Positions 11,183 to 53,924 of a stretch of DNA of 64,000 nucleotides are shown here, piece by piece. The notes under the pieces were generated by a model. The model did no database searches and had not been told where the DNA came from. It saw only the letters and a program-made list of their open reading frames with translations. The DNA lies in the NCBI RefSeq assembly GCF_009914755.1, contig NC_060936.1; one strand, given 5' to 3'. The position numbers and the translations under genes were made by a program. The first letter of the stretch is position 1. Each line of letters begins with the position of its first letter. This DNA is from the human T2T-CHM13v2.0 reference genome, Homo sapiens.

Positions 11183-11940
11183 TGTAGTGGCAGCCTCTAA
11201 GATACTACTTACTGATCCATCCCTCACTCCTCAGATTCACACCCTGGGTAACACTTTCCCTTAAGTATGAGCTAGAAGTAATATCTCACTTCTAATGAAT
11301 AAATTCAGCAAAAGTAATTGTTTATCACTTTTAATAATAGGTTATAAAAAGAAACAGATTTCTGTCTCTCCCTGACTCTCTCTCTCTCTCCTCTCCATCT
11401 TCCTCTCTTCCTCTCTCTTATTGCAAAATAAATCATATAATGTTTTAAAACATTACCCCATGTGGTACACTGATTGCATTTAGGGCTGGAGTCATTCACC
11501 TGTCTCTGCATCCATATCCCTTTGCCATATAACGTTGTGGCAACTCCCACTGGGAATCTAGGCTTAGCCATGTTACTTGCTTTGGCCAATGTGATGCTAG
11601 CAAATGCAAACACAAGCATTGGCTTCAAGGGGAGGCACTATTGGAGTTGTTCAGTCTTGCCCTCTGCCATTGCCATGAGAATATGCTCTGGCTAGCCTGC
11701 TAGAGGGTGAAAGACAGAGCAGAGCCAAGTCACCCAGTCTTCCCAGACGAGGCCATCCTGGATCAGTCAACAGCCAACACACCCCAGCCAAAATCAGCCT
11801 TGCTGTCTAGTGGACCCACAGCTGACCACAGACATGTGAGGGAGCCATGAGAGTCTGAGAACCAGACCAAAGTAGCTGAACCTCTCAAACACCTGAGCAA
11901 AATAAATATTTACCGCTGTAAATTGTCTGTTACATATTGG
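11183..11940 (+). mobile_element. Adjacent or nested MLT1 MaLR LTR fragments
   Basis: MLT1-like starts at ~11183 (tgtagtggcagcctctaagat) and 11461 (tgtggtacactgattgc). Boundaries approximate. Confidence 0.5.
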
Positions 11941-13845
11941 ATAATATTATGTAAAAAAGCATTCTCCTTCTCTGTGGATATCACTGATGAGATCCCATGT
12001 ACTTACAAGAATTTTATTTATAAAATTAAGATTTGCTATTTACTAGAATTATTAAATATGCACATATTGACCTAATCATTACATAACCATTGTATATTGC
12101 AACTTAGAATATCCTTCATTGTATTAATGGGGAGGATAGGGACTGGGGAGAAAGGTATTTGCTCCAGAGACCCCTGTTGAAAAACAGGAGATTGCTGCAA
12201 AACGATCTGATGGATATAAATTTTTCACACAGTGCACTTTGGAACTGTTCCCATCTCCAGATACAATTAGAGGAAAGCACTGACCCCATCCCAAGTCAAG
12301 CCTTGAGCCTGCAGATTCCTGATGGTAGGAGTGAGGGTCCTGCCCTCAGGACCCGCTGGAGGGTAGAACAGGTGGGTTGATGTCTGCTATATTTCCTCTT
12401 GGGCCAACGCACTTCAGTAAATGGTCTCTATTTTAGAAGCCCAAATATCAAGAGGACTTTAGAGGACTGGACTAGGATATCCTGAGACTCAAAGCATTAA
12501 CAAGATCATGATGCCCATTGCCATAAGTAATTTAAAAGATTTGTTTTTCAATGACACAAAACCTCATGTATGCTGTGATCTAGCTATTCTAATTTGGGGA
12601 ACTTTCTGACATTACTAAAAACCAAACTTCTTTGTATTTTAGTGAATTTCTGTGTATCCATTTGGGGGTGGGAGGGCTTGTTTTTCTCTTTTCTTTACAT
12701 ATTTAGCCCTCCTGTGGGGTATTCTACCTATATGCAGATTAGAAAACAACCAAGGAAAGCTAGATTTTCTTTTTCTACCTGGGTCTCTGACTGACCTAAC
12801 CAGTTGCATCTATTTCAGAATGGAAACAATTTGTACCAACAACAAACCTTAATTAATAAATCCAAAATAGATAAAGTTTCATATGCTGTGCTTTGGAAAA
12901 TAACTTATTTCTGAATGTGAGTCATTCTAAGAACAAACTCTAATTGATCATGTAAATTCAGCCTATACAAATTTGTGTTAAATATCATTACTTAATAAAC
13001 TTCTTAACCACCTTCCTGATTTTGAGCCTGCTTTCAAATTTTAATTAGATGTAATGATCAGACAGTTATAAAATGCTAACATTCAAAGAGGAATTGATGT
13101 ACATAGTTTTCACCCTAATATTTGGGACCTGCCATTCTGGATTCCAAATGTAACCTGTGCATGGTTTCTTAGGACTCACTGGGTGTGTATCGTCTAAGGA
13201 CTCTAAACGTAATGCATGTAATAGTTACATTCATAGGATGGCTATGTAATTTTATTAACCAAACTAGTAAGCTTCAAAATGCAAACTATAATACATACAA
13301 GTTGTAGCCTGTAGTTGTTTCCAGAATCAGACTTTTAAAGTTAAAATTCTCATTGTTTTTAATTCAGATATCTTTTACTCTGGACTAAGAGGCAATCCTC
13401 CCCATTCTTGGTGTTTAACAGGAGGCAGCGACTTTAGAATTCTCTCCCATTTCAAGTGCCCACAAAACTGCTATTGCTGCTTACAAAAGTTGTGCATAAG
13501 CCTGGATACAAAACAAACCCTATGGGGAAAGAAAAAAAAAAACGGGTCGATGAATTCACCCAAGTGCAAATTACCTCAAGATTCATTTTTCCCTTTTTGT
13601 AGAACTAACAAGTGAATCTTACTGAGTTGGGACCAAAGAAACCCACTGAAGTGAGCCTTTAAGAGACATTTGTGCTGGTGATGACAGCATTTTCATGGTA
13701 ATTTGTTAATGTTCTTGCAAAGCAGGGGTAATTTACTCCAGTAAAATCTAGCTAATAGCCTTGTAGATTTGAGGCCTTCAACCAAGGGCCACATGCAGGC
13801 CTTGGGCGGCCTAGTGCCTGTAGGACTGCATAACCACCAGAAGAT

Positions 13846-13885
13846 CTCACACCTGACCTCCTGGCTCACACCTGACCTCCTGGCT
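13846..13885. repeat. 19-bp perfect tandem duplication
   Basis: CTCACACCTGACCTCCTGG twice, read directly. Confidence 0.9.
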
Positions 13886-15334
13886 GACTCCCTTTCTCAG
13901 CCTCACACCACCGTCACATCTCAGATCCAGTTCCCAGTATGGGACGTCCAATTGGTGTTAAAGGGAGCAGGGAGCTTGGGAAGGGGCAGGGCAGAAGGCA
14001 CAGCATTTGTGAGTGTTAAACTCAGGAAGGCATGAACCTTCAAGCTCTCTTTTTTGGAGGCAGGCTTTAACACAAAGAAAAGAAAATGATGTGTAAAAAC
14101 ATACATCAATATCATTCATTTTCTTTTCTGATTATAAAAATAATACACATTCATTATAGATTTTTGAAAAACAGAAAGACCTCCAAATGGGGACAAAAGC
14201 ACCAATAATTGTATCTAGACATCTTGATGCAGTTCCTGCCAGTTTTTCTCCATGCAGACTTTAATTACTTTATGCAAATTTATTGTGTATGAATACTTTT
14301 TTAAGAAAATCTGATTTTTTGGCCACATAATATCACTATTTGTATGCACTGTAAGTTATAAAATGTTTCCATTATTAGACAATATAGGTGATTTCCATTA
14401 TTGCATAACTATAAATAACATAGCAGTGAACATCCTTATACAGAAATCTTGGTCTCCCACTCTAATTAGGTTTTTAAGATAGATTCTCAGAAGGGATAAG
14501 TGGAATCAACGGGCATGGATGTTTCAACATATTTGATACATAAAATCAAGTCAAATTGCTCTGCAGAAAAGCCACATCGATTAGACAGTGTGTTCAGCCA
14601 CGTGGTAGGAGAGGCCTTTATTAATGCACTTTCACCAACATTGAGTTTTTAATCTGTGCTAATTTGACTGGTAAAATGACAGATCGAAAGTCACATTTTC
14701 AGTTTATGTGTACAAAAGTTATTATATATAGCTCAGTTTGCTCATAAAATTAACATATTTGGGCCATTTAGAAAGCCATAAAATGAGTCACTGAATACCA
14801 AAAGTGACTTCAAAGAGCATGGAATATACTGAAGGCGAAATTGTTTGCCCAGGCCACTCTGTAGTGATGAACTCAGGACTAAAACCCAAGAATTCTATTT
14901 CCCATCCCAGCGTTCCTAAGAAGAGATTTTTAGTAAGATAGAACCTGCTTTAAAATGCAGAAAGAATGGAGAGGCGGAGGAGACTTTTAACTGTGGTTTG
15001 ATAAAGCTGTTTTCCTCACTAATTTTTCAATGCTTTCACACTGTCCGAGGCTGGTGGTCCTGACATCTGGCAGCTTTTTAACCTTAACTTTTGGAGGGGA
15101 AAAGTCAAGAAATACAAAGTTGTTTCAGAATTAACCAAAGCAAAGTATCACTAGGAAGCTCAGTCCATTCCGAAGATATCTCAAGAGACCATCTATAATA
15201 AAATATAAATGACTCCTCGTGGTCTCTACCCGAGTTGTCTGTGATTCATTCATGGTGAGAACATGAAGGTATAAAGGCCACAACTAAAGATTTTGCTTGT
15301 TACCACGCCTTTAAAACTTCCTTTTTAATTTTTT

Positions 15335-47200: not shown

Positions 47201-48060
47201 CAAGCTCCTTCAGCTGGCCCTTAAGGAATGGTGTGGTTTGGACACTGTCCCCATCCCTCAGTCACACTGTTTCCCTATTTCCTTTACAAACACACCTCCC
47301 GTGTGCCTGCCTTTGCTCTTGCCACTCCCTTTGCAGGAACACTCTTTCCCAGGTTTTCATAGAACCTACACCTTGGTAACATTCTGGTCTCAGCACAAAC
47401 CAGCTGCACATCCTCAGAGAAGCCTTTCTACCCACCCATGTAAAACAGCAGCCCTGCCCGCTGCCAGCCTCACTTCAATGACTCTCCATCGCATCCCTTG
47501 ATTATGTATCCCAGATATACCCCAGATCTCCAAATCAGACTTCCTGGTAGTGGGGCCTGCCAATCTTTCCTTTTATTAAGCTACCTCTGGGGATTCTGAT
47601 ATGCAACCAATTTAGGAACCCTCAGTCTGTGGTATAATGGGAAAGGAAAGAATGGTAGGCATGTTGAGGTGTGCTGTGGTTCACGGCGAGTGTTTTGTTC
47701 CTCATGAGTTTTGATAGTCCAATATTACAGTGATGTAGGATACTACAAACCCACTGTAATTTTGCAGCAATAAATTACTGTCATTCCCTTGCTTGTTTAT
47801 AAATGCCACCTGAAACCTCAATCAACAAAATTGTGGAGAATCTGTTAGAAACAGAGCCAAAAATTCCTCCAACTTCTTCGTAGAACAGTTATGATCATAC
47901 AAGTGAGAAGACTAAGTGAAGAATGGACAGCTAAAGGATTCGACAAATTAATAGGTTGAAGGAATACAGACATAGTTTTTTAAGCCAGGAAACTGTGGGT
48001 GCTTACAAATCTTTGGGAAAATACTCACTGTCACCAAGAATTTTAAGATTAAAATATTTG

Positions 48061-50184
48061 GTGAACTGGGAGGTACCAGGTCAGGAGGGCCCAGGGGCCA
48101 GGGCCATGGCTGGGAGCGGCTCCATTCTGGCGCCCCAGCTCCTCCAGGTCACAGTCCTCGTTCCGTCCCCTCGCCCACTGCTTGCATGACCCTGAGAGGC
48201 ATCTCTGTAGGGCTACTGAGCCCACAGACCCAGCCTGCGTGTTCTGCACACGTGGGTCTCAAGACTAAGAAAGATGGGAGGACACAGAGCTGACCAGCCA
48301 AGTATAAGGACCCTGGTCACGCTGTGCATCTGCAGCCCCTGCCCAACTGTCTGCCTGCCCCGGATGGATTCTGTCCCAGAATCCAAGGGCTGCCTGAACA
48401 GGATGACAGGGTCATGCCCAGGGTCAGAGGCACTGAGGCACCTGGCATCCCGAGTGTAACTGGCAGGACCTGCTGGTGCTGCAGGAGCAGACGAGGGCAG
48501 ATGAGATCCTCATCAGGAACACCTTCCACACTTACCACCAGCAGTGACTCATGCCTGGCATTCTGCTGGCCAATTGCACTGAAGTTTTTCATGGGGAGGA
48601 GCATATTGCAGCTGTGGGAGCTGGGTGTACTAGGCCCCACCATCAAAGGATATGGCTGTATTGGGGTCTCATGTGTGGCCTATGCACTTCTGGTCTAAAA
48701 GCTGGAGTGGGTGGACAGTGGCTACAGGTTGGCAATGAGTGTCTAGTCCTCCTCTAGTCATGCGCCCTATCTACACCTACATCAGTGAGGAGCAGTGGCA
48801 GAAGTATTAGGTTGGTGCAAAAGTAATTGTGCTTTTTGCCATTACTTCTAATGACAAAAACTGCAATTATGTTTGCAGCAACCTATACCTGCCCCCTGCT
48901 GGCCAAGGGGGCGCTCCTGCGCTACTTCAGGCTCATAGAGCCCAACTGCAGGAGTGACCCCGGCAGCATGGAGATCAGAACCTGCCATAACCCCTGGAAT
49001 AAGAGCTGCACCCTCAATGGGACCACCCTGATCCAACGGGACCTGAATCACCACCAGGATCCAGTGAGACCTAGGTCACCACCTCACCTGTGGCCAACCT
49101 GTTTGTAGCGTGGGCTGGAAGATGGCTACCTTCAGGGCTTCCTGTCGGAGAAGGGTATGTGGGGTCTCTTGGCCTCCAAGATTGAGGGCAAGTTCTCCCT
49201 GCGGGCCTCTGCCATGGGCATGATCATCGTGGACAGCGTGGAGGTGGAGGACGTGCTGCTCAGTGCAGGCAGCCTGGAGGGTCCCTTTGGCTGCCTGAAC
49301 AACGCCAGATCTGGTATCATGTGGGGAGTGCTTGGAGCTGCCGAGTTTTGTCTGCTCGTGGCCAGGCAGTACACCCCACACAGGATCCAGTTTGGCATCC
49401 TGTTGGTCAGGCACCAGCTGATTCAGAAGTTGGAGGTCACGCTGGGCCTTCATGCCTGTCTGCAGCACAGCCACTTGAAGAATCAGGGCAAGGCAGCCCC
49501 CGGACAGGTCTCTCTGCTAAAGACGAATAACTATGAAAAAAGCCTGGACATTGCCTGCCAGGCCTGAGACATGCTGGGGGGTACTGGGGTTTCTGATGAC
49601 TATCATATGGTCCGGAACATCAGGAACTCAGAGGCCATGAAAACCTCTGAGGGTACACATGACATGCGCACCCTGATCCTGGAAAGACCTGTCACGGGAA
49701 TCCACAAATTCACGGCTGGCAAGTGAGCCCATCCAGCCAGTGGCCCAAAGCTCTCAAACCCCTTCCCAGAGACAGGCCTGGCTGGACCATGGGAATGCTG
49801 TGTTCTGAGCTTAGGAAGGAAGCTAGCGGATGGAGTGGGAAGTGAGAGACACTGATTTTTAAATATCAGAATTTCCCTTCTGAAGTTGTTCAGATGTGTT
49901 CCTTAAAAAGAAGATGGAATTCTCTGTAGAGTTTCTCAGTCCACTTTTAACAATGGATGAGAACAGACTCCATTTACCTTGAAATAGAAACATCTATTGA
50001 GAGAAGGAGTGTGACATTGAAGCAACTTCCTGGAGACCCCCTTGGTCTCTGCCTGAGCAGACTCCCCTCACATCAAGGGTTCACAGTGCACCCTCCGACC
50101 CTTCCATCCGGGGTTAGTGCCTTATGCTGGACATTGGAGCAGAATAAGGGAGAGGAAAATAAGAAGGCTGCACGTCTGACCCCA
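48061..50184 (+). pseudogene. Semi-processed pseudogene of glutaryl-CoA dehydrogenase (GCDH)
   Basis: ATG at 48186 (MTLRGISVGLLS ~ GCDH MALRGVSVRLLS). Peptides [39 protein letters not shown]-like, EGTHDM; stop TGA at 49724-49726; GCDH-like 3'UTR to ~50184. Coding exons are joined without introns and carry many stops and frameshifts. Confidence 0.95.
48807..48885. mobile_element. MADE1 (Hsmar1-derived MITE)
   Basis: TTAGGTTGGTGCAAAAGTAATTG...CAATTATGTTTGCAGCAACCTA palindrome. TA TSD (48805-48806 and 48886-48887) duplicating the TA of the GCDH AAG-TAC-CTG (KYL) codons. Confidence 0.95.
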
Positions 50185-50197
50185 TAGTGTTGGGTTA

Positions 50198-50375
50198 CAT
50201 TGACTGGTAACCACCTGAGAAGTAGTTTCAGTCACAGGAGAAATGAACACGTCTGGGTGCTCTGAGTCATGGGAACGTGGTAGGGACGGCATTTACTGGT
50301 AACCACCTGAGAAGTAGTTTCAGCCACAGGAGAAATGAACACATCTGAATGCTGTGAGTCACTGGGACATGGTGG
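50198..50375. repeat. 92-bp-period tandem duplication
   Basis: CATT(G/T)ACTGGTAACCACCTGAGAAGTAGTTTCAG(T/C)CACAGGAGAAATGAACAC... starts at 50198 and again at 50290. Confidence 0.92.
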
Positions 50376-50406
50376 TCTAGCCCATGTCTGAGTCTTAGGC
50401 TCTGCT
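50306..50406 (-). pseudogene. SYCE2 penultimate-exon remnant (antisense inside the GCDH retrocopy)
   Basis: Minus strand: tttattacag|CAG AGC CTA AGA CTC AGA (QSLRLR)...PPCPSDSQHSDVFISPVAETTSQ|gtggtt, versus recalled SYCE2 QSLRLRWGPDH...PPRPGNSQPPDVFVSSVAETTSQ. Confidence 0.85.
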
Positions 50407-50773
50407 GTAATAAATAAACCCAAGTTAGCACTGCCCAGGCCCCTGGGGGGCATATACCAGGGATGCAGGGCTCAAGGCTGTAGATGGAGAGGACAGTTTC
50501 TGACCAGCAGGGGTGCAGGGGATTTTGTTCTTTCTGTCACCACACAGCTGATCACGTGATGGTGGGAAATGACAGTGGTCTGGCTTCTCCGCTTGGACAC
50601 ACCATGTTACAGGGGGTCACAAATGAGATGGCAAAAGCACCACGGGCCTTGTGGGGACTGTGGCCTTGTGAGGTCAGGGCTGGCTGCCTGGTTTCTGTTC
50701 ACATTTACTATCAGCTGGGCCATCCCTGCTTCCTCAGGCAGAGCCCCCCATTGAGTTTGCTCAGGCGGGATAC

Positions 50774-50961
50774 CTCAGACCGGATGCACAGGTCTTTGTA
50801 CACAGTCTCCTTCTGTGGCCATCTTGGTTAAGCTCTGTTTCCAAATGGCTGATCTTTGCCACTTTCTGAGTGAACCCCTGGAGCTTTTCCTAGATGATCT
50901 TGATGTTATCATTATAAAGCTGATAGATCCTCTCCTCTAACTGCTCTGTCAGATCCAAAAC
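50774..50961 (-). pseudogene. SYCE2 internal coiled-coil exon remnant (antisense inside the GCDH retrocopy)
   Basis: Manual translation VLDLTEQLEERIYQLYNDNIKII*EKLQGFTQKVAKISHLETELNQDGHR/ETVYKDLCIRSE|gtatcc, versus recalled SYCE2 VSDLTEKLEERIYQIYNDHNKIIQEKLQEFTQKMAKISHLETELKQVCHSVETVYKDLCLQPE. One stop, a 1-nt deletion, and acceptor AG changed to AA. Confidence 0.9.
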
Positions 50962-51184
50962 TTTTCAAAGAATAAGACACATTCTTGGAAAATCAGACAA
51001 GATGTATCACCAGCCATTTATTCTAAGTGGATCTCAAATTTCTGCAATTTATCTTATATAATGCTAAAACAAACAACCCCCCCACGCCATCCCACCACCC
51101 CCCCACACACACAAAACAAAACAAAAAAAAACCAGTGCAGTCACTGCGGAGCTAAATTTTTTAAGAGGTGAAAACATATAAAGT

Positions 51185-51505
51185 CAGTTGCCACATAGTG
51201 ATGTTTTGGTCAATATCGGGTTGTATATGCAATGATGGTCCTGTAAGATTATAATATCTTATCATAATTTTACTGTACGTTTTCTTTGTTTAGATATGTT
51301 TGAATACACAAATACTTACCATGGTGTTACAATTGCCTATAGTATTCAGTATAGTAACATGTTGTGCAGGTTTGTAGCCTAGGAGCAATAGGCTATACCA
51401 TCTAGGTTTGTGTAAGTACAATCTATGATGTTCAGACAATGATAAAGTTGCTTAACTTCGCATTTCTCAGTAATGTTCCAATTGTAAAGTGATGCATGAT
51501 TTTAT
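51185..51505 (+). mobile_element. Tigger3a/MER7-like (TcMar-Tigger) MITE
   Basis: cacatagtgatgttttggtcaat...gatggtcctgtaagattataat...gtttgtagcctaggagcaataggctatacca...tgatgcatga matches recalled Tigger3 derivatives. Confidence 0.8.
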
Positions 51506-51603
51506 ACAGTATAAATTCAACTAGGTTAGAAAGAAAGTACATAAAACAGGGGCTAGAAGAGGCATGCAACAAAGTGGTCTCTGGGTGATGTATCAAATAC
51601 ATG

Positions 51604-52497
51604 TTTATATATATATTTATATATTATATATATATATTTATATATTATATATATATATTTATATATTATATATTAAATATATATTTATATATTATATATA
51701 TATATTTATATATTATATATATATTATATTTATATTTTATATATTATATATATATTATATTTATATATAATATATTATATATATATTATATTTATATATA
51801 ATATATAAATATAATATATTTATATATTATATATAAATATATTATATTTATATATTATATATAAATATATTATATTTATATATTATATATAAATATATTA
51901 TATTTATATATTATATATAAATATAATATATATATAATATATAAAATATAAATATAATATATATATAATATATAAATATATATATAATATATAAATATAT
52001 ATTTATATATTATATATAAATATATTATATTTATATATTATATATAAATATATTATATTTATATATTATATATAAATATATTATATTTATATATTATATA
52101 TAAATATATTATATTTATATATATATTATATTTATATATTATATATAAATATATATATTATATTTATATATATTATATTTATATATATAATATATTTATA
52201 TATTATATATAAAATATATATATTATATAAATATAATATATATATTATATATATAATATATATTTTATATATAATATATATATTTATATAAAATATATAT
52301 ATTTAATATAAATATATATTTATATATAATATATATTATATATATAATATAAATATATATATATAATATATATTTATATTATATATATAATATATAATAT
52401 ATATTTATATTATATATATAATATATAAATATATAATATATATATATTATATATTATATATAAATATATAATATATATATTATATATTTTTTTTTAA
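51604..52497. repeat. 894-bp interrupted (TA)n / AT-only minisatellite
   Basis: No G or C between 51603 and 52498. Internal 28-bp unit TATATATTATATATAAATATATTATATT from 51821. Confidence 0.97.
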
Positions 52498-52592
52498 CTG
52501 CGTTATGCATTTCTCTACTTTCTAAATTTTCTATGCTGTACCAGGGTATGTACCAATAGGGATTGGGCAGGGGGGCATAAAAGTGGAAAATA

Positions 52593-52888
52593 GGTTGGGC
52601 ACAGTGGGCCACCCCTGTAATCTTAGCACTCTGGGAGGCCAAGGCAGGAGGATGGCTTGAGGCTAGGATTTCAAGACCAGCCCGGGTAACATAGTGATAC
52701 CCCATCTTCAAAAAAAAAAAAATTGTTTTTTATTTGTGGGGTGTGGCGGCACACACCTGTAGTTCCAAGCTACTTAGGAGGCTGAGGTGGGAGCATCTCT
52801 TGAGCCCAGGAGTTTGAGGCTGCAGTGAGCTATAATTGCACTACTGCACCTAGCCTAGGGAACACAGTAAGACCTTGTCTCCAAAAAA
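52593..52888 (+). mobile_element. AluJ
   Basis: ggaggatggcttgaggctagg and gagcccaggagtttgaggctgcagtgagctataattg are AluJ diagnostics. Confidence 0.9.
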
Positions 52889-53924
52889 CTGGTGGGGTGG
52901 GGGCGGGTAATAAAGTCAACCTTTCATTGACACACGTGGAATTAGCAAGCTGTTCCATTCATGAGATCCATTATATTTGAAGAGGCATCAGGCATAACCA
53001 TTAATTTAGGACCTGAACATAGCATCAGGCATTGCAAGACATAAGCTCCTGGCATGTTGAAGAACCCCAGCTCTCCCATCAGAGAATATTTGATGACTTC
53101 TGGAGGACGTGGATGTGACAATGCAAGCTGTGCCTCAACCCCGACTACCGTAGCTATTCATCCCTGTGTGAAGTGAGAGGGCTGGGCATTGGATGCAGGG
53201 GAATCTGGGCCCTCAGCCTGGCTCTCTAACTTGGGCAAATCATTCATTTCCAAATGTTATCCATACAATGAGTCCAATATCTTATTTTCAGGATTATTGT
53301 AAGGGTGAATTAAGATACAGGTGGTCCCCAACTTACTATGATTTGATGTATAATTTTTCAACTTTATAATGAGTTTACTGGGGTATAAAGTACATTTTCA
53401 ACTTATGAAACAAAAAAGGTTAAAACATTTAAAGGTTGTGAAAGTGTGAAAACAAGAAAAAGAATAGAAGGTGGCCATACGATCAGCAAAATTTAATAAA
53501 TTGTGTGAGTGGAAGGATTATTTTCCTGCCAAACAAACATGAGATCCATAGAGAAATTATTTCCCAGGAGCTTTATAAGATTTTGAGTTTGTCTTAGCAA
53601 CATTTAAGTCATTGGAGGTATCATTTTCATGGTATGCTTCCAAATTTAACATTTAAATAGGAAAAAAAGTCCCAAGCCAAATTTGAATACCCATAACCAA
53701 TAACTAGAAATGCAATTCAGTCAATATATGACTGACGGTGTTGTAATTGTTCATACTATGGCTAAGAAGAAATGTTACCCCTCTCTGAAATGTCCCCATT
53801 TCCCCATCTAGATGTAATCTATCCTAGCACCATTTATTTATTTATTATTTGTTATTTATTTATTTGCTGGAAATTACAGTTACTTATAAATATGTGTGTC
53901 CTACTCTACAAGTTCCTTTGTGCA

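What the first reader, a model, noticed from the sequence alone, without database searches (positions are those of the whole stretch)
48304..48440. Retrocopy preserves a frameshifting alternative 5' splice site in GCDH intron 3
Seen: 137 extra nt lie between the exon-3-like ...CAGCCAAGT and the exon-4-like CCTGGCATCCCGAG. They start ATAAGG (a decayed GTAAGG donor) and end GAGGCA with no AG acceptor. Recalled GCDH intron 3 begins gtaaggacctctggtcgcac... and contains ...ggcactaaggca|gtgagt. Inference: a downstream donor was spliced to exon 4. Since 137 is not a multiple of 3, this would be an ancient unproductive (NMD-type) isoform, possibly a conserved poison splice event in the glutaric aciduria type I gene.
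Basis: partly seen in the sequence, partly recalled or inferred. Interest (0 to 1): 0.72.

Follow-up and report, generated by a model that had tools for sequence, protein, structure and literature searches.

The report
GCDH pseudogene preserving an alternative splice
A dead, reverse-transcribed copy of the glutaric aciduria gene GCDH on chromosome 12 was made from an unusual messenger RNA that used a second splice donor 138 bases into intron 3; this is an ordinary kind of genomic fossil, and whether the live gene still uses that donor remains to be checked.

Summary
Window 48304-48440 (137 nt) is the first part of GCDH intron 3, with 112 of 137 aligned bases identical. It sits between exon-3-like and exon-4-like sequence in a processed GCDH pseudogene.

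In the chr19 parent the breakpoint falls at GCA|GTGAGT. This is the only one of 24 GTs in intron 3 that matches GTRAGT 6 of 6. The missing 170 nt run GT..AG up to the first base of exon 4. So the source RNA used an alternative 5' splice site.

One correction: in the parent the extension is 138 nt, or 46 codons, so it is in frame. The "137, frameshift" reading comes from a 1-nt gap in the copy. The isoform is still unproductive, because an in-frame TAA (codon 87) lies 4 nt before the alternative junction. The copy has TGA at the same place.

The copy is larger than annotated, about 48061-53415. It keeps intron 1 and reads more than 3 kb past the canonical poly(A) site.

It is old: K2P is about 0.2, and a MADE1-like element has inserted into it.

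Conservation, present-day use and regulation of the donor could not be tested here. This is an ordinary kind of fossil and of modest interest.

The parts
48045..48059 (+). 5' target-site duplication candidate (15 nt), preceded by TTTT
   Evidence: 13 of 15 bases match window 53416-53430. 38 of 2000 shuffles of the flanks reach the score, so support is modest.
48061..48079 (+). Last ~22 nt of GCDH exon 1 (5' limit of the copy)
   Evidence: Homology to L006 1634-1655 starts here.
48080..48147 (+). Retained 68-nt intron 1 of the parent (CAG|GTAAGG ... TGTAG|G in the parent)
   Evidence: It aligns without a gap across both borders, 47 of 68 identical. The intron status in the parent is inferred from its GT..AG form and from my recall of the 12-exon RefSeq model.
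48148..48267 (+). Exon 2 (holds the ATG); intron 2 cleanly absent after it
   Evidence: There is a 10-nt deletion near its 3' end.
48268..48303 (+). Exon 3 (36 nt)
   Evidence: 28 of 36 identical. It ends ...AAGT as in the parent.
48304..48440 (+). The finding: the first 138 nt of parent intron 3 (137 nt in the copy). This is the extension of exon 3 made by the alternative 5' splice site.
   Evidence: 112 of 137 identical, one 1-nt gap, K2P 0.22. The parent breakpoint is GCA|GTGAGT.
48441..48584 (+). Exon 4, starting at its exact first base
   Evidence: 120 of 144 identical, no gap.
48585..49725 (+). Exons 5-12 (coding part), with introns 4-11 all absent
   Evidence: Every junction was viewed. 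In the parent frame the copy has 6 stop codons and 9 frameshifting indels.
48807..48886 (.). 80-nt palindromic interspersed repeat (MADE1-like; the name is recalled) inserted in exon 6 at a TA
   Evidence: It has 37-nt arms that are 81% complementary. The first look found 474 genome candidates; 40 were scored, giving 74 matches on both strands. It is absent from the parent.
49022..49083 (+). Tandem duplication (28 nt x 2.2) that repeats the already spliced exon 7/8 junction
   Evidence: It is not a retained intron 7.
49726..50185 (+). Canonical GCDH 3' UTR up to the usual poly(A) site
   Evidence: 86.3% identity. The parent AATAAA is at L006 10403. The poly(A) sites listed in the supplement of PMC13187750 map there through a constant offset.
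50186..53415 (+). Read-through 3' extension, collinear with chr19 DNA beyond the poly(A) site. It carries later additions: a 92-nt x 1.8 tandem duplication at 50198-50367, a (TA)n-rich repeat at about 51598-52503, and an Alu-like element at about 52587-52888. It ends in a short A-rich tail.
   Evidence: Collinear HSPs run to window 53338. Identity is 80.5-83.8%.
53416..53430 (+). 3' target-site duplication candidate

Best explanation
Window ~48061-53415 is a single, long-dead processed pseudogene of GCDH (parent on chr19). It was made by reverse transcription of a non-canonical GCDH transcript and inserted at a TTTT/AA-type site.

The source RNA had four features:
- It kept the 68-nt intron 1.
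- It spliced out intron 2 and introns 4-11 normally.
- It ran more than 3 kb past the usual poly(A) site.
- In intron 3 it used a downstream donor (GCA|GTGAGT, G at intron position +139) instead of the canonical AGT|GTAAGG, joined to the normal exon 4 acceptor.

This lengthened the 36-nt exon 3 by 138 nt. The extension is in frame but ends with an in-frame stop (TAA in the live gene, TGA in the copy). The isoform would therefore encode only 86 residues and be a predicted target of nonsense-mediated decay.

Shown: the homology, the exact GT..AG borders, the frame and the stop, the age indicators, and the anatomy of the copy.

Inferred: the alternative donor competes because the canonical donor of this very short exon is weak. 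I also infer that its use is low-level splicing noise rather than a regulated switch.
For: 1. Collinear homology. 10 HSPs, all on the + strand, link window 48061-49729 to L006. 13 HSPs extend this to window 53338.
2. The junction. Window 48268-48440 is continuous with parent exon 3 plus 138 nt of intron. Window 48441 onward is exon 4 from its first base. The 170 nt missing from the copy start GTGAGT and end CCCAG. Flanking bases allow no alternative placement of the gap.
3. Donor quality. Of 24 GTs in the 308-nt intron 3, only the one at +139 matches GTRAGT 6 of 6.
4. Weak canonical donor. It matches the 9-mer consensus at 6 of 9 positions, the same as the alternative donor. By a crude U1-duplex energy it is the second weakest of the 11 canonical donors (-5.8 kcal/mol), against -6.8 for the alternative donor.
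5. Gene model and frame. My parent exon model gives one open frame of 438 codons plus a stop. With the 138-nt extension, the first stop is codon 87, 42 residues are shared with the normal protein, and the stop ends 4 nt before the alternative junction. Exon 4 (144 nt) and 8 more junctions follow.
6. Retrocopy hallmarks. 9 of 11 introns are fully absent. A 13/15 duplication flanks the copy, with a short A-rich tail at the 3' end. The copy has 6 in-frame stops and 9 frameshifting indels. Only the parent and this copy are found in the genome.
Against: - No transcript data were available. Use of this donor in any living species is not shown here.
- The copy's canonical donor reads ATAAGG. This may be later decay, or the cause of the event (see the rival on a mutant source allele).
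- The source RNA was unusual in three ways at once: retained intron 1, alternative donor, and 3' read-through. It may have been an aberrant nuclear transcript rather than a recurrent isoform.
- By the crude U1-duplex measure the +139 GT ranks only third of the 24 GTs in the intron.
- The target-site duplication is only modestly better than chance, with 38 of 2000 shuffles reaching it. The poly(A) tail is reduced to about 9 A-rich bases.
Confidence: 0.85

Rival explanations
1. The +139 donor of exon 3 is a conserved, regulated 'poison' splice choice that tunes GCDH output through nonsense-mediated decay. The pseudogene is a fossil of that long-standing regulation.
For: - The donor hexamer is still a perfect GTRAGT in the human gene.
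- The event is at least as old as the copy, with K2P about 0.2.
- A stop codon sits at the same column in the copy (TGA) and the parent (TAA).
- The canonical donor is weak and the exon is only 36 nt.
Against: - One fossil shows one use, not regulation.
- The extension has diverged as much as neutral-looking 3' sequence: 25 mismatches of 137, against a background of about 17.5% (binomial P(<=25) 0.64). Identity is 81.8%, against 80.5-86.3% for that sequence. So there is no sign of constraint.
- Eight full-text searches found no paper on this junction.
- The GCDH poison exons listed in the supplement of PMC13187750 lie at the 3' end of the gene, not here.
Confidence: 0.1
2. The source allele carried a mutation of the canonical donor (+1 G>A, as the copy now reads ATAAGG). 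This forced use of the next good donor. The copy would then record a germline splice mutation, not a normal minor isoform.
For: The copy has A where the parent has the invariant G of the canonical donor. Loss of that G would be expected to shift splicing to the only GTRAGT in the intron.
Against: About 18% of the positions in this stretch differ between copy and parent anyway, 25 of 137. A G>A at one named site is therefore unremarkable as later decay. A carrier of a rare recessive splice allele is an unlikely source a priori (inference).
Confidence: 0.07
3. Intron 3 was fully retained in the source RNA, as intron 1 was. A later genomic deletion of 170 nt in the chr12 copy removed its 3' part.
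For: Intron 1 is retained in the same copy. The copy also carries other deletions of 5-18 nt.
Against: The deletion would have to start exactly at the only GTRAGT of the intron and end exactly at the acceptor AG. Under uniform end points in a 308-nt intron that is roughly 1 in 10^5 (my estimate). The largest other deletion in the coding part is 18 nt.
Confidence: 0.03

Closest known systems
Processed pseudogenes as fossils of splice isoforms (Shemesh et al. [quoted passage not shown] I saw this only as an entry in the reference list of PMC5470649. The paper itself is not held, so its content is recalled.
   Same: An intronless, L1-type retrocopy whose exon junctions reveal which splice sites the source mRNA used. 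Here these include a non-canonical one.
   Different: This copy combines three non-canonical features: retained intron 1, an alternative donor in intron 3, and more than 3 kb of read-through past the poly(A) site. I could not check whether GCDH is in that paper's lists.
Alternative 5' splice site use coupled to nonsense-mediated decay (unproductive or 'poison' splicing)
   Same: A downstream GT donor lengthens an exon and brings in a stop codon. A junction follows more than 50 nt downstream. The rule is as worded in the abstract of PMC13187750, seen in the listing.
   Different: The defining functional evidence is lacking: NMD sensitivity, regulation and conservation. The extension is in frame (138 nt), so the stop arises from the intron sequence itself, not from a frameshift.
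GCDH poison exons with intronic polyadenylation (PMC13187750, Table 1 and supplement file 1; I read section 18 and two supplement passages)
   Same: The same gene, and also predicted NMD-target isoforms. That paper's coordinates also show GCDH transcripts that continue past the usual poly(A) site.
   Different: Those events lie in and after the last exon (hg38 chr19:12899468-12900318). That is about 8 kb downstream of exon 3, and they are cassette or terminal-exon events, not an alternative donor.
LOC644203, RefSeq pseudogene 'glutaryl-CoA dehydrogenase, mitochondrial-like' (hub table)
   Same: It is the same element.
   Different: The annotated span, 48501-49723, covers only the coding-like part from mid exon 4 to the stop. 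The copy runs from about 48061 to about 53415, so the finding lies outside the annotated span.

Membership tests
Processed pseudogene (L1-mediated retrocopy) | Parent introns absent at exact exon-exon junctions | tested here: met
   9 of 11 introns are fully absent. Intron 3 lacks its 3' 170 nt, and intron 1 is present.
Processed pseudogene (L1-mediated retrocopy) | Located away from the parent, single copy, collinear with the transcript including the UTRs | tested here: met
   Parent on C19, copy on C12. There are only these two matches in the genome, and the HSPs are collinear.
Processed pseudogene (L1-mediated retrocopy) | Flanking target-site duplication | tested here: inconclusive
   A 13/15 match sits directly at both limits, and the 5' copy is preceded by TTTT. 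However, 38 of 2000 shuffles do as well.
Processed pseudogene (L1-mediated retrocopy) | 3' poly(A) tail | tested here: inconclusive
   Only AAACAAAAA remains before the 3' duplication.
Processed pseudogene (L1-mediated retrocopy) | Disabled reading frame | tested here: met
   6 stops in the parent frame, 9 frameshifting indels and an 80-nt insertion.
Alternative 5' splice site event | GT donor at the alternative border in the parent gene, with the same acceptor as the canonical intron | tested here: met
   GCA|GTGAGT at intron position +139. The junction falls on the first base of exon 4. The remaining intron is 170 nt, GT..AG.
NMD-coupled ('poison') splicing | Premature stop more than 50 nt upstream of a later exon junction | tested here: met
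   The TAA at codon 87 ends 4 nt before the alternative junction. The next junction lies 144 nt further on, and 8 junctions follow.
NMD-coupled ('poison') splicing | The junction is seen in present-day RNA and rises when NMD is blocked | not testable with these tools
   No RNA-seq or junction tables are held. Eight literature searches found nothing on this junction.
NMD-coupled ('poison') splicing | Conservation of the alternative site and its flanks across species | not testable with these tools
   No other mammalian genome is held (one search states that the genome has no relatives here). The within-genome proxy shows no excess similarity.
MADE1-type miniature mariner element (name recalled) | About 80 nt, palindromic, TA target duplication, many genomic copies | tested here: met
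   37-nt arms that are 81% complementary. TA on both sides. 474 first-look candidates, 40 scored, 74 matches at 76-93% identity.

The most novel reading that the evidence does not exclude
The +139 donor of GCDH exon 3 may have been kept for tens of millions of years as a functional unproductive-splicing valve on a very short, weakly defined exon. The chr12 pseudogene would be its fossil witness. If so, blocking that donor with a splice-switching oligonucleotide could raise productive GCDH mRNA in carriers of hypomorphic glutaric aciduria type I alleles. Variants at the canonical donor (c.127+1/+2 by my numbering) would be predicted to give a 138-nt, stop-bearing inclusion.
Probability: 0.1. 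Interest if true: 0.55.

Novelty: new member of a known kind. Interest (0 to 1): 0.3.

Why it matters
This is a clean example of a retrocopy that dates an alternative splice choice. GCDH exon 3 could already be spliced from a donor 138 nt downstream when the copy was made, roughly 45-100 million years ago on recalled neutral rates. The human gene still carries a perfect GTRAGT there.

For a disease gene this gives three things:
- A concrete junction to look for in RNA data.
- A prediction for what canonical-donor variants of exon 3 would do.
- A candidate site for splice-switching if the isoform proves abundant.

It also shows that the RefSeq pseudogene span misses about three quarters of the copy. 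None of this is surprising in kind.

Tried and rejected
- **Retained intron 7.** One BLAST HSP (window 48902-49280, 70% identity) ran across parent intron 7. Inspection showed that the 41 extra bases are a tandem duplication (28 nt x 2.2) which repeats the already spliced exon 7/8 junction. Rejected.
- **Constraint on the 138 nt.** I compared copy-to-parent divergence of the extension with the coding exons and with four non-coding 3' blocks. Identities were 81.8% for the extension, 80.9% for coding exons and 80.5-86.3% for the 3' blocks. The binomial test shows no deficit of changes. This is a weak test with n = 137.
- **Intron 1 as a neutral yardstick.** It is 69% identical over 68 nt and lies in a CpG-rich 5' region. 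I did not lean on it.
- **U1-duplex energies.** These are a crude stand-in for a proper splice-site score. They allow out-of-register pairing and rank the +139 GT third of 24. No MaxEnt-type model was at hand.
- **Other GCDH retrocopies that could confirm the junction.** None were found.
- **Literature.** Searches for GCDH with pseudogene, intron 3, c.127+1G, nonsense-mediated decay, cryptic donor, poison exon, the RefSeq NR accessions or LOC644203, and retrocopy terms gave nothing on this junction. In one search only 12 of 489 papers were listed, and none of the 12 holds 'GCDH'. PMC8395096 reports a GCDH intron-retention event with a shifted start site, but the passages I saw do not say which intron.
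- **Shemesh et al. 2006.** The paper is not held.
- **Which of 137 or 138 nt is ancestral.** This cannot be settled without an outgroup.

Full report
**1. Observation**

The window reads ...CCAGCCAAGT, then 137 nt beginning ATAAGG and ending GAGGCA, then CCTGGCATCCCGAG.

A search of the window's own genome with window 48100-48700 found the window itself and four collinear pieces on contig C19. I fetched C19:13014000-13023999 as L006, and later L007 and L008.

- BLAST of window 47801-50400 against L006 gave 10 collinear plus-strand HSPs.
- Window 48268-48440 aligns without interruption to L006 1940-2113 (80.5% identity, E 6e-41).
- Window 48441-48584 aligns to L006 2284-2427 (83.3%, E 3e-39).

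**2. The junction**

In the parent, exon 3 (36 nt) ends ...GCTAAGT and is followed by GTAAGG. After 138 intronic bases the parent reads AAGGCA|GTGAGT. The canonical intron is 308 nt and ends CCCAG|CCTCGCG.

- The copy holds exon 3, the first 138 intronic bases (137 in the copy, because of one 1-nt gap), and then exon 4 from its first base.
- The 170 nt that the copy lacks therefore begin GT and end AG.
- The bases on either side leave no other placement of the gap.
- Of the 24 GT dinucleotides in intron 3, only the one at +139 matches GTRAGT at 6 of 6 positions. The consensus is recalled.
- The canonical donor and the alternative donor each match the 9-mer consensus at 6 of 9 positions. The other ten donors of the gene match at 6-8.
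- By a crude U1-duplex energy the exon 3 donor (-5.8 kcal/mol) is the second weakest of the 11 canonical donors. The alternative donor scores -6.8 and ranks third of the 24 GTs.

I conclude that the source RNA was spliced from the +139 donor to the normal exon 4 acceptor.

**3. Frame**

My exon model of the parent gives a single open frame of 438 codons plus a stop. Exon 3 ends at coding position 127.

- The extension is 138 nt, which is 46 codons, so it keeps exon 4 in frame.
- It contains a TAA that becomes codon 87 and ends 4 nt before the alternative junction. Only 42 residues are shared with the normal protein.
- Exon 4 (144 nt) and eight more junctions follow, so the isoform meets the 50-nt rule for nonsense-mediated decay. 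I take the wording of that rule from the abstract of PMC13187750 in the listing.
- The copy has TGA at the same column. A stop was therefore probably there when the copy was made, provided the frame was then as it is now.

Which length is ancestral cannot be told without an outgroup.

**4. The whole element**

- The copy starts at window 48061, 22 nt before the end of parent exon 1.
- It keeps the 68-nt intron 1, with 47 of 68 bases identical and no gap at either border.
- It lacks intron 2 and introns 4-11 at exact junctions.
- Homology does not stop at the coding end. It runs through the canonical 3' UTR, past the parent AATAAA at L006 10403, and on to window 53338, collinear with chr19 DNA. 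The breaks are where the parent has clusters of Alu-like repeats and the copy has a (TA)n-rich repeat and one Alu-like element.
- The poly(A) sites listed for GCDH in the supplement of PMC13187750 (hg38 12899951 and 12899969) map next to that AATAAA. I used an offset of 124,453, which I obtained from two exon borders.
- A 15-nt stretch directly before the 5' limit matches, at 13 of 15 positions, a stretch directly after a short A-rich tail at 53416-53430. 38 of 2000 shuffles do as well.
- In the parent frame the copy has 6 stop codons and 9 frameshifting indels.
- The genome holds no other copy.
- RefSeq's LOC644203 span (48501-49723, hub table) therefore covers only part of the copy and excludes the finding.

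**5. Age**

- Identity to the parent is 80.9% over 1311 coding positions (K2P 0.227) and 81.8% over the extension (K2P 0.221).
- It is 80.5-86.3% (K2P 0.154-0.229) over four non-coding 3' blocks.
- With neutral rates of 1-2.2 x 10^-9 per site per year (recalled) and both lineages free, K of about 0.2 gives roughly 45-100 million years.
- An 80-nt palindromic repeat with TA on both sides sits in exon 6 of the copy and is absent from the parent. It has hundreds of genomic relatives: 474 first-look candidates, 40 scored, 74 matches. I recall this as MADE1, the miniature form of Hsmar1.
- Two abstracts seen in the listing (PMC9062482, PMC6326780) date Hsmar1's arrival in primates to about 50 million years ago. 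The copy was therefore already there while that family was mobile.

**6. Rivals**

- **Later deletion in a fully retained intron.** It would need end points exactly at the one GTRAGT and at the acceptor. Under uniform end points that is about 1 in 10^5 (my estimate). The largest other deletion in the coding part is 18 nt.
- **Mutant source allele.** The copy's canonical donor reads ATAAGG. Either this is one of the 25 later changes in the stretch, or the source allele had lost its donor and so forced the cryptic site. I give the latter about 7%.
- **Regulated, conserved poison event.** The evidence neither shows nor excludes this. The only proxy I could compute shows no excess similarity of the extension.

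**7. Comparison with what is known**

- Processed pseudogenes that record splice variants are a described class. I know it from Shemesh et al. 2006, seen here only in a reference list. The paper is not held.
- Unproductive splicing coupled to decay is well known.
- For GCDH, PMC13187750 lists two poison-exon events, both in or after the last exon. They are not this one.
- PMC8395096 reports an induced GCDH intron-retention event with an upstream shift of the start site. The passages I read do not say which intron.
- Eight full-text searches gave no paper on the exon 3 junction or on this pseudogene's structure. Supplements and subscription journals are largely outside these searches.
- Gene-model databases could not be consulted, so the isoform may already be annotated.

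**8. Verdict**

The frameshift claim is corrected to an in-frame extension that carries a stop. Antiquity is supported, while function and conservation are untested. This is a tidy but ordinary genomic fossil.

Noticed in passing
window 48061-53415 vs hub annotation 48501-49723: The RefSeq span of pseudogene LOC644203 covers only the coding-like middle of the copy. The 5' part (exon 1 end, intron 1, exons 2-3, the intron 3 piece) and about 3.7 kb of 3' UTR and read-through sequence are outside it.
   Followed up: yes
window 49826-49990: A 165-nt stretch of the 3' UTR-derived part is 93.9% identical to the parent (155 of 165), against about 83% elsewhere. P is 3e-5 at 17% divergence but 0.11 at 9%. 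The result fits a strongly constrained element in the parent's proximal 3' UTR plus slow decay of AT-rich, CpG-poor DNA in the copy.
   Followed up: partly
window 49950-50039, 50120-50379, 50840-50889: All three nearby RefSeq 'enhancer' features of the hub table lie inside the pseudogene's 3' UTR and read-through part. I did not examine why.
   Followed up: no
window 48807-48886: An 80-nt palindromic MADE1-like element is inserted at a TA in exon 6 of the copy.
   Followed up: yes
window 49022-49083 and 50198-50367: Two tandem duplications arose in the copy after insertion: 28 nt x 2.2, repeating the spliced exon 7/8 junction, and 92 nt x 1.8 in the 3' UTR part.
   Followed up: partly
window 51070-51135 and 51598-52503; L006/L007 positions 11213-12375 and 12808-14361 of my merged chr19 string: Copy and parent lose collinearity at two places. 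There the parent holds clusters of Alu-like repeats, with an (AATA)n run at the second. The copy holds a C/A-rich low-complexity stretch at the first and a roughly 900-nt (TA)n-rich repeat at the second. Both places seem to have been unstable or insertion-prone in both loci.
   Followed up: partly
window 53320-53400 / chr19 13028720-13028800: The last ~80 nt of the copy, and the matching parent DNA, look like an old interspersed repeat with reiterated CAACTTAC-like motifs. The source transcript ended inside it, and no AATAAA is seen nearby in the parent.
   Followed up: no
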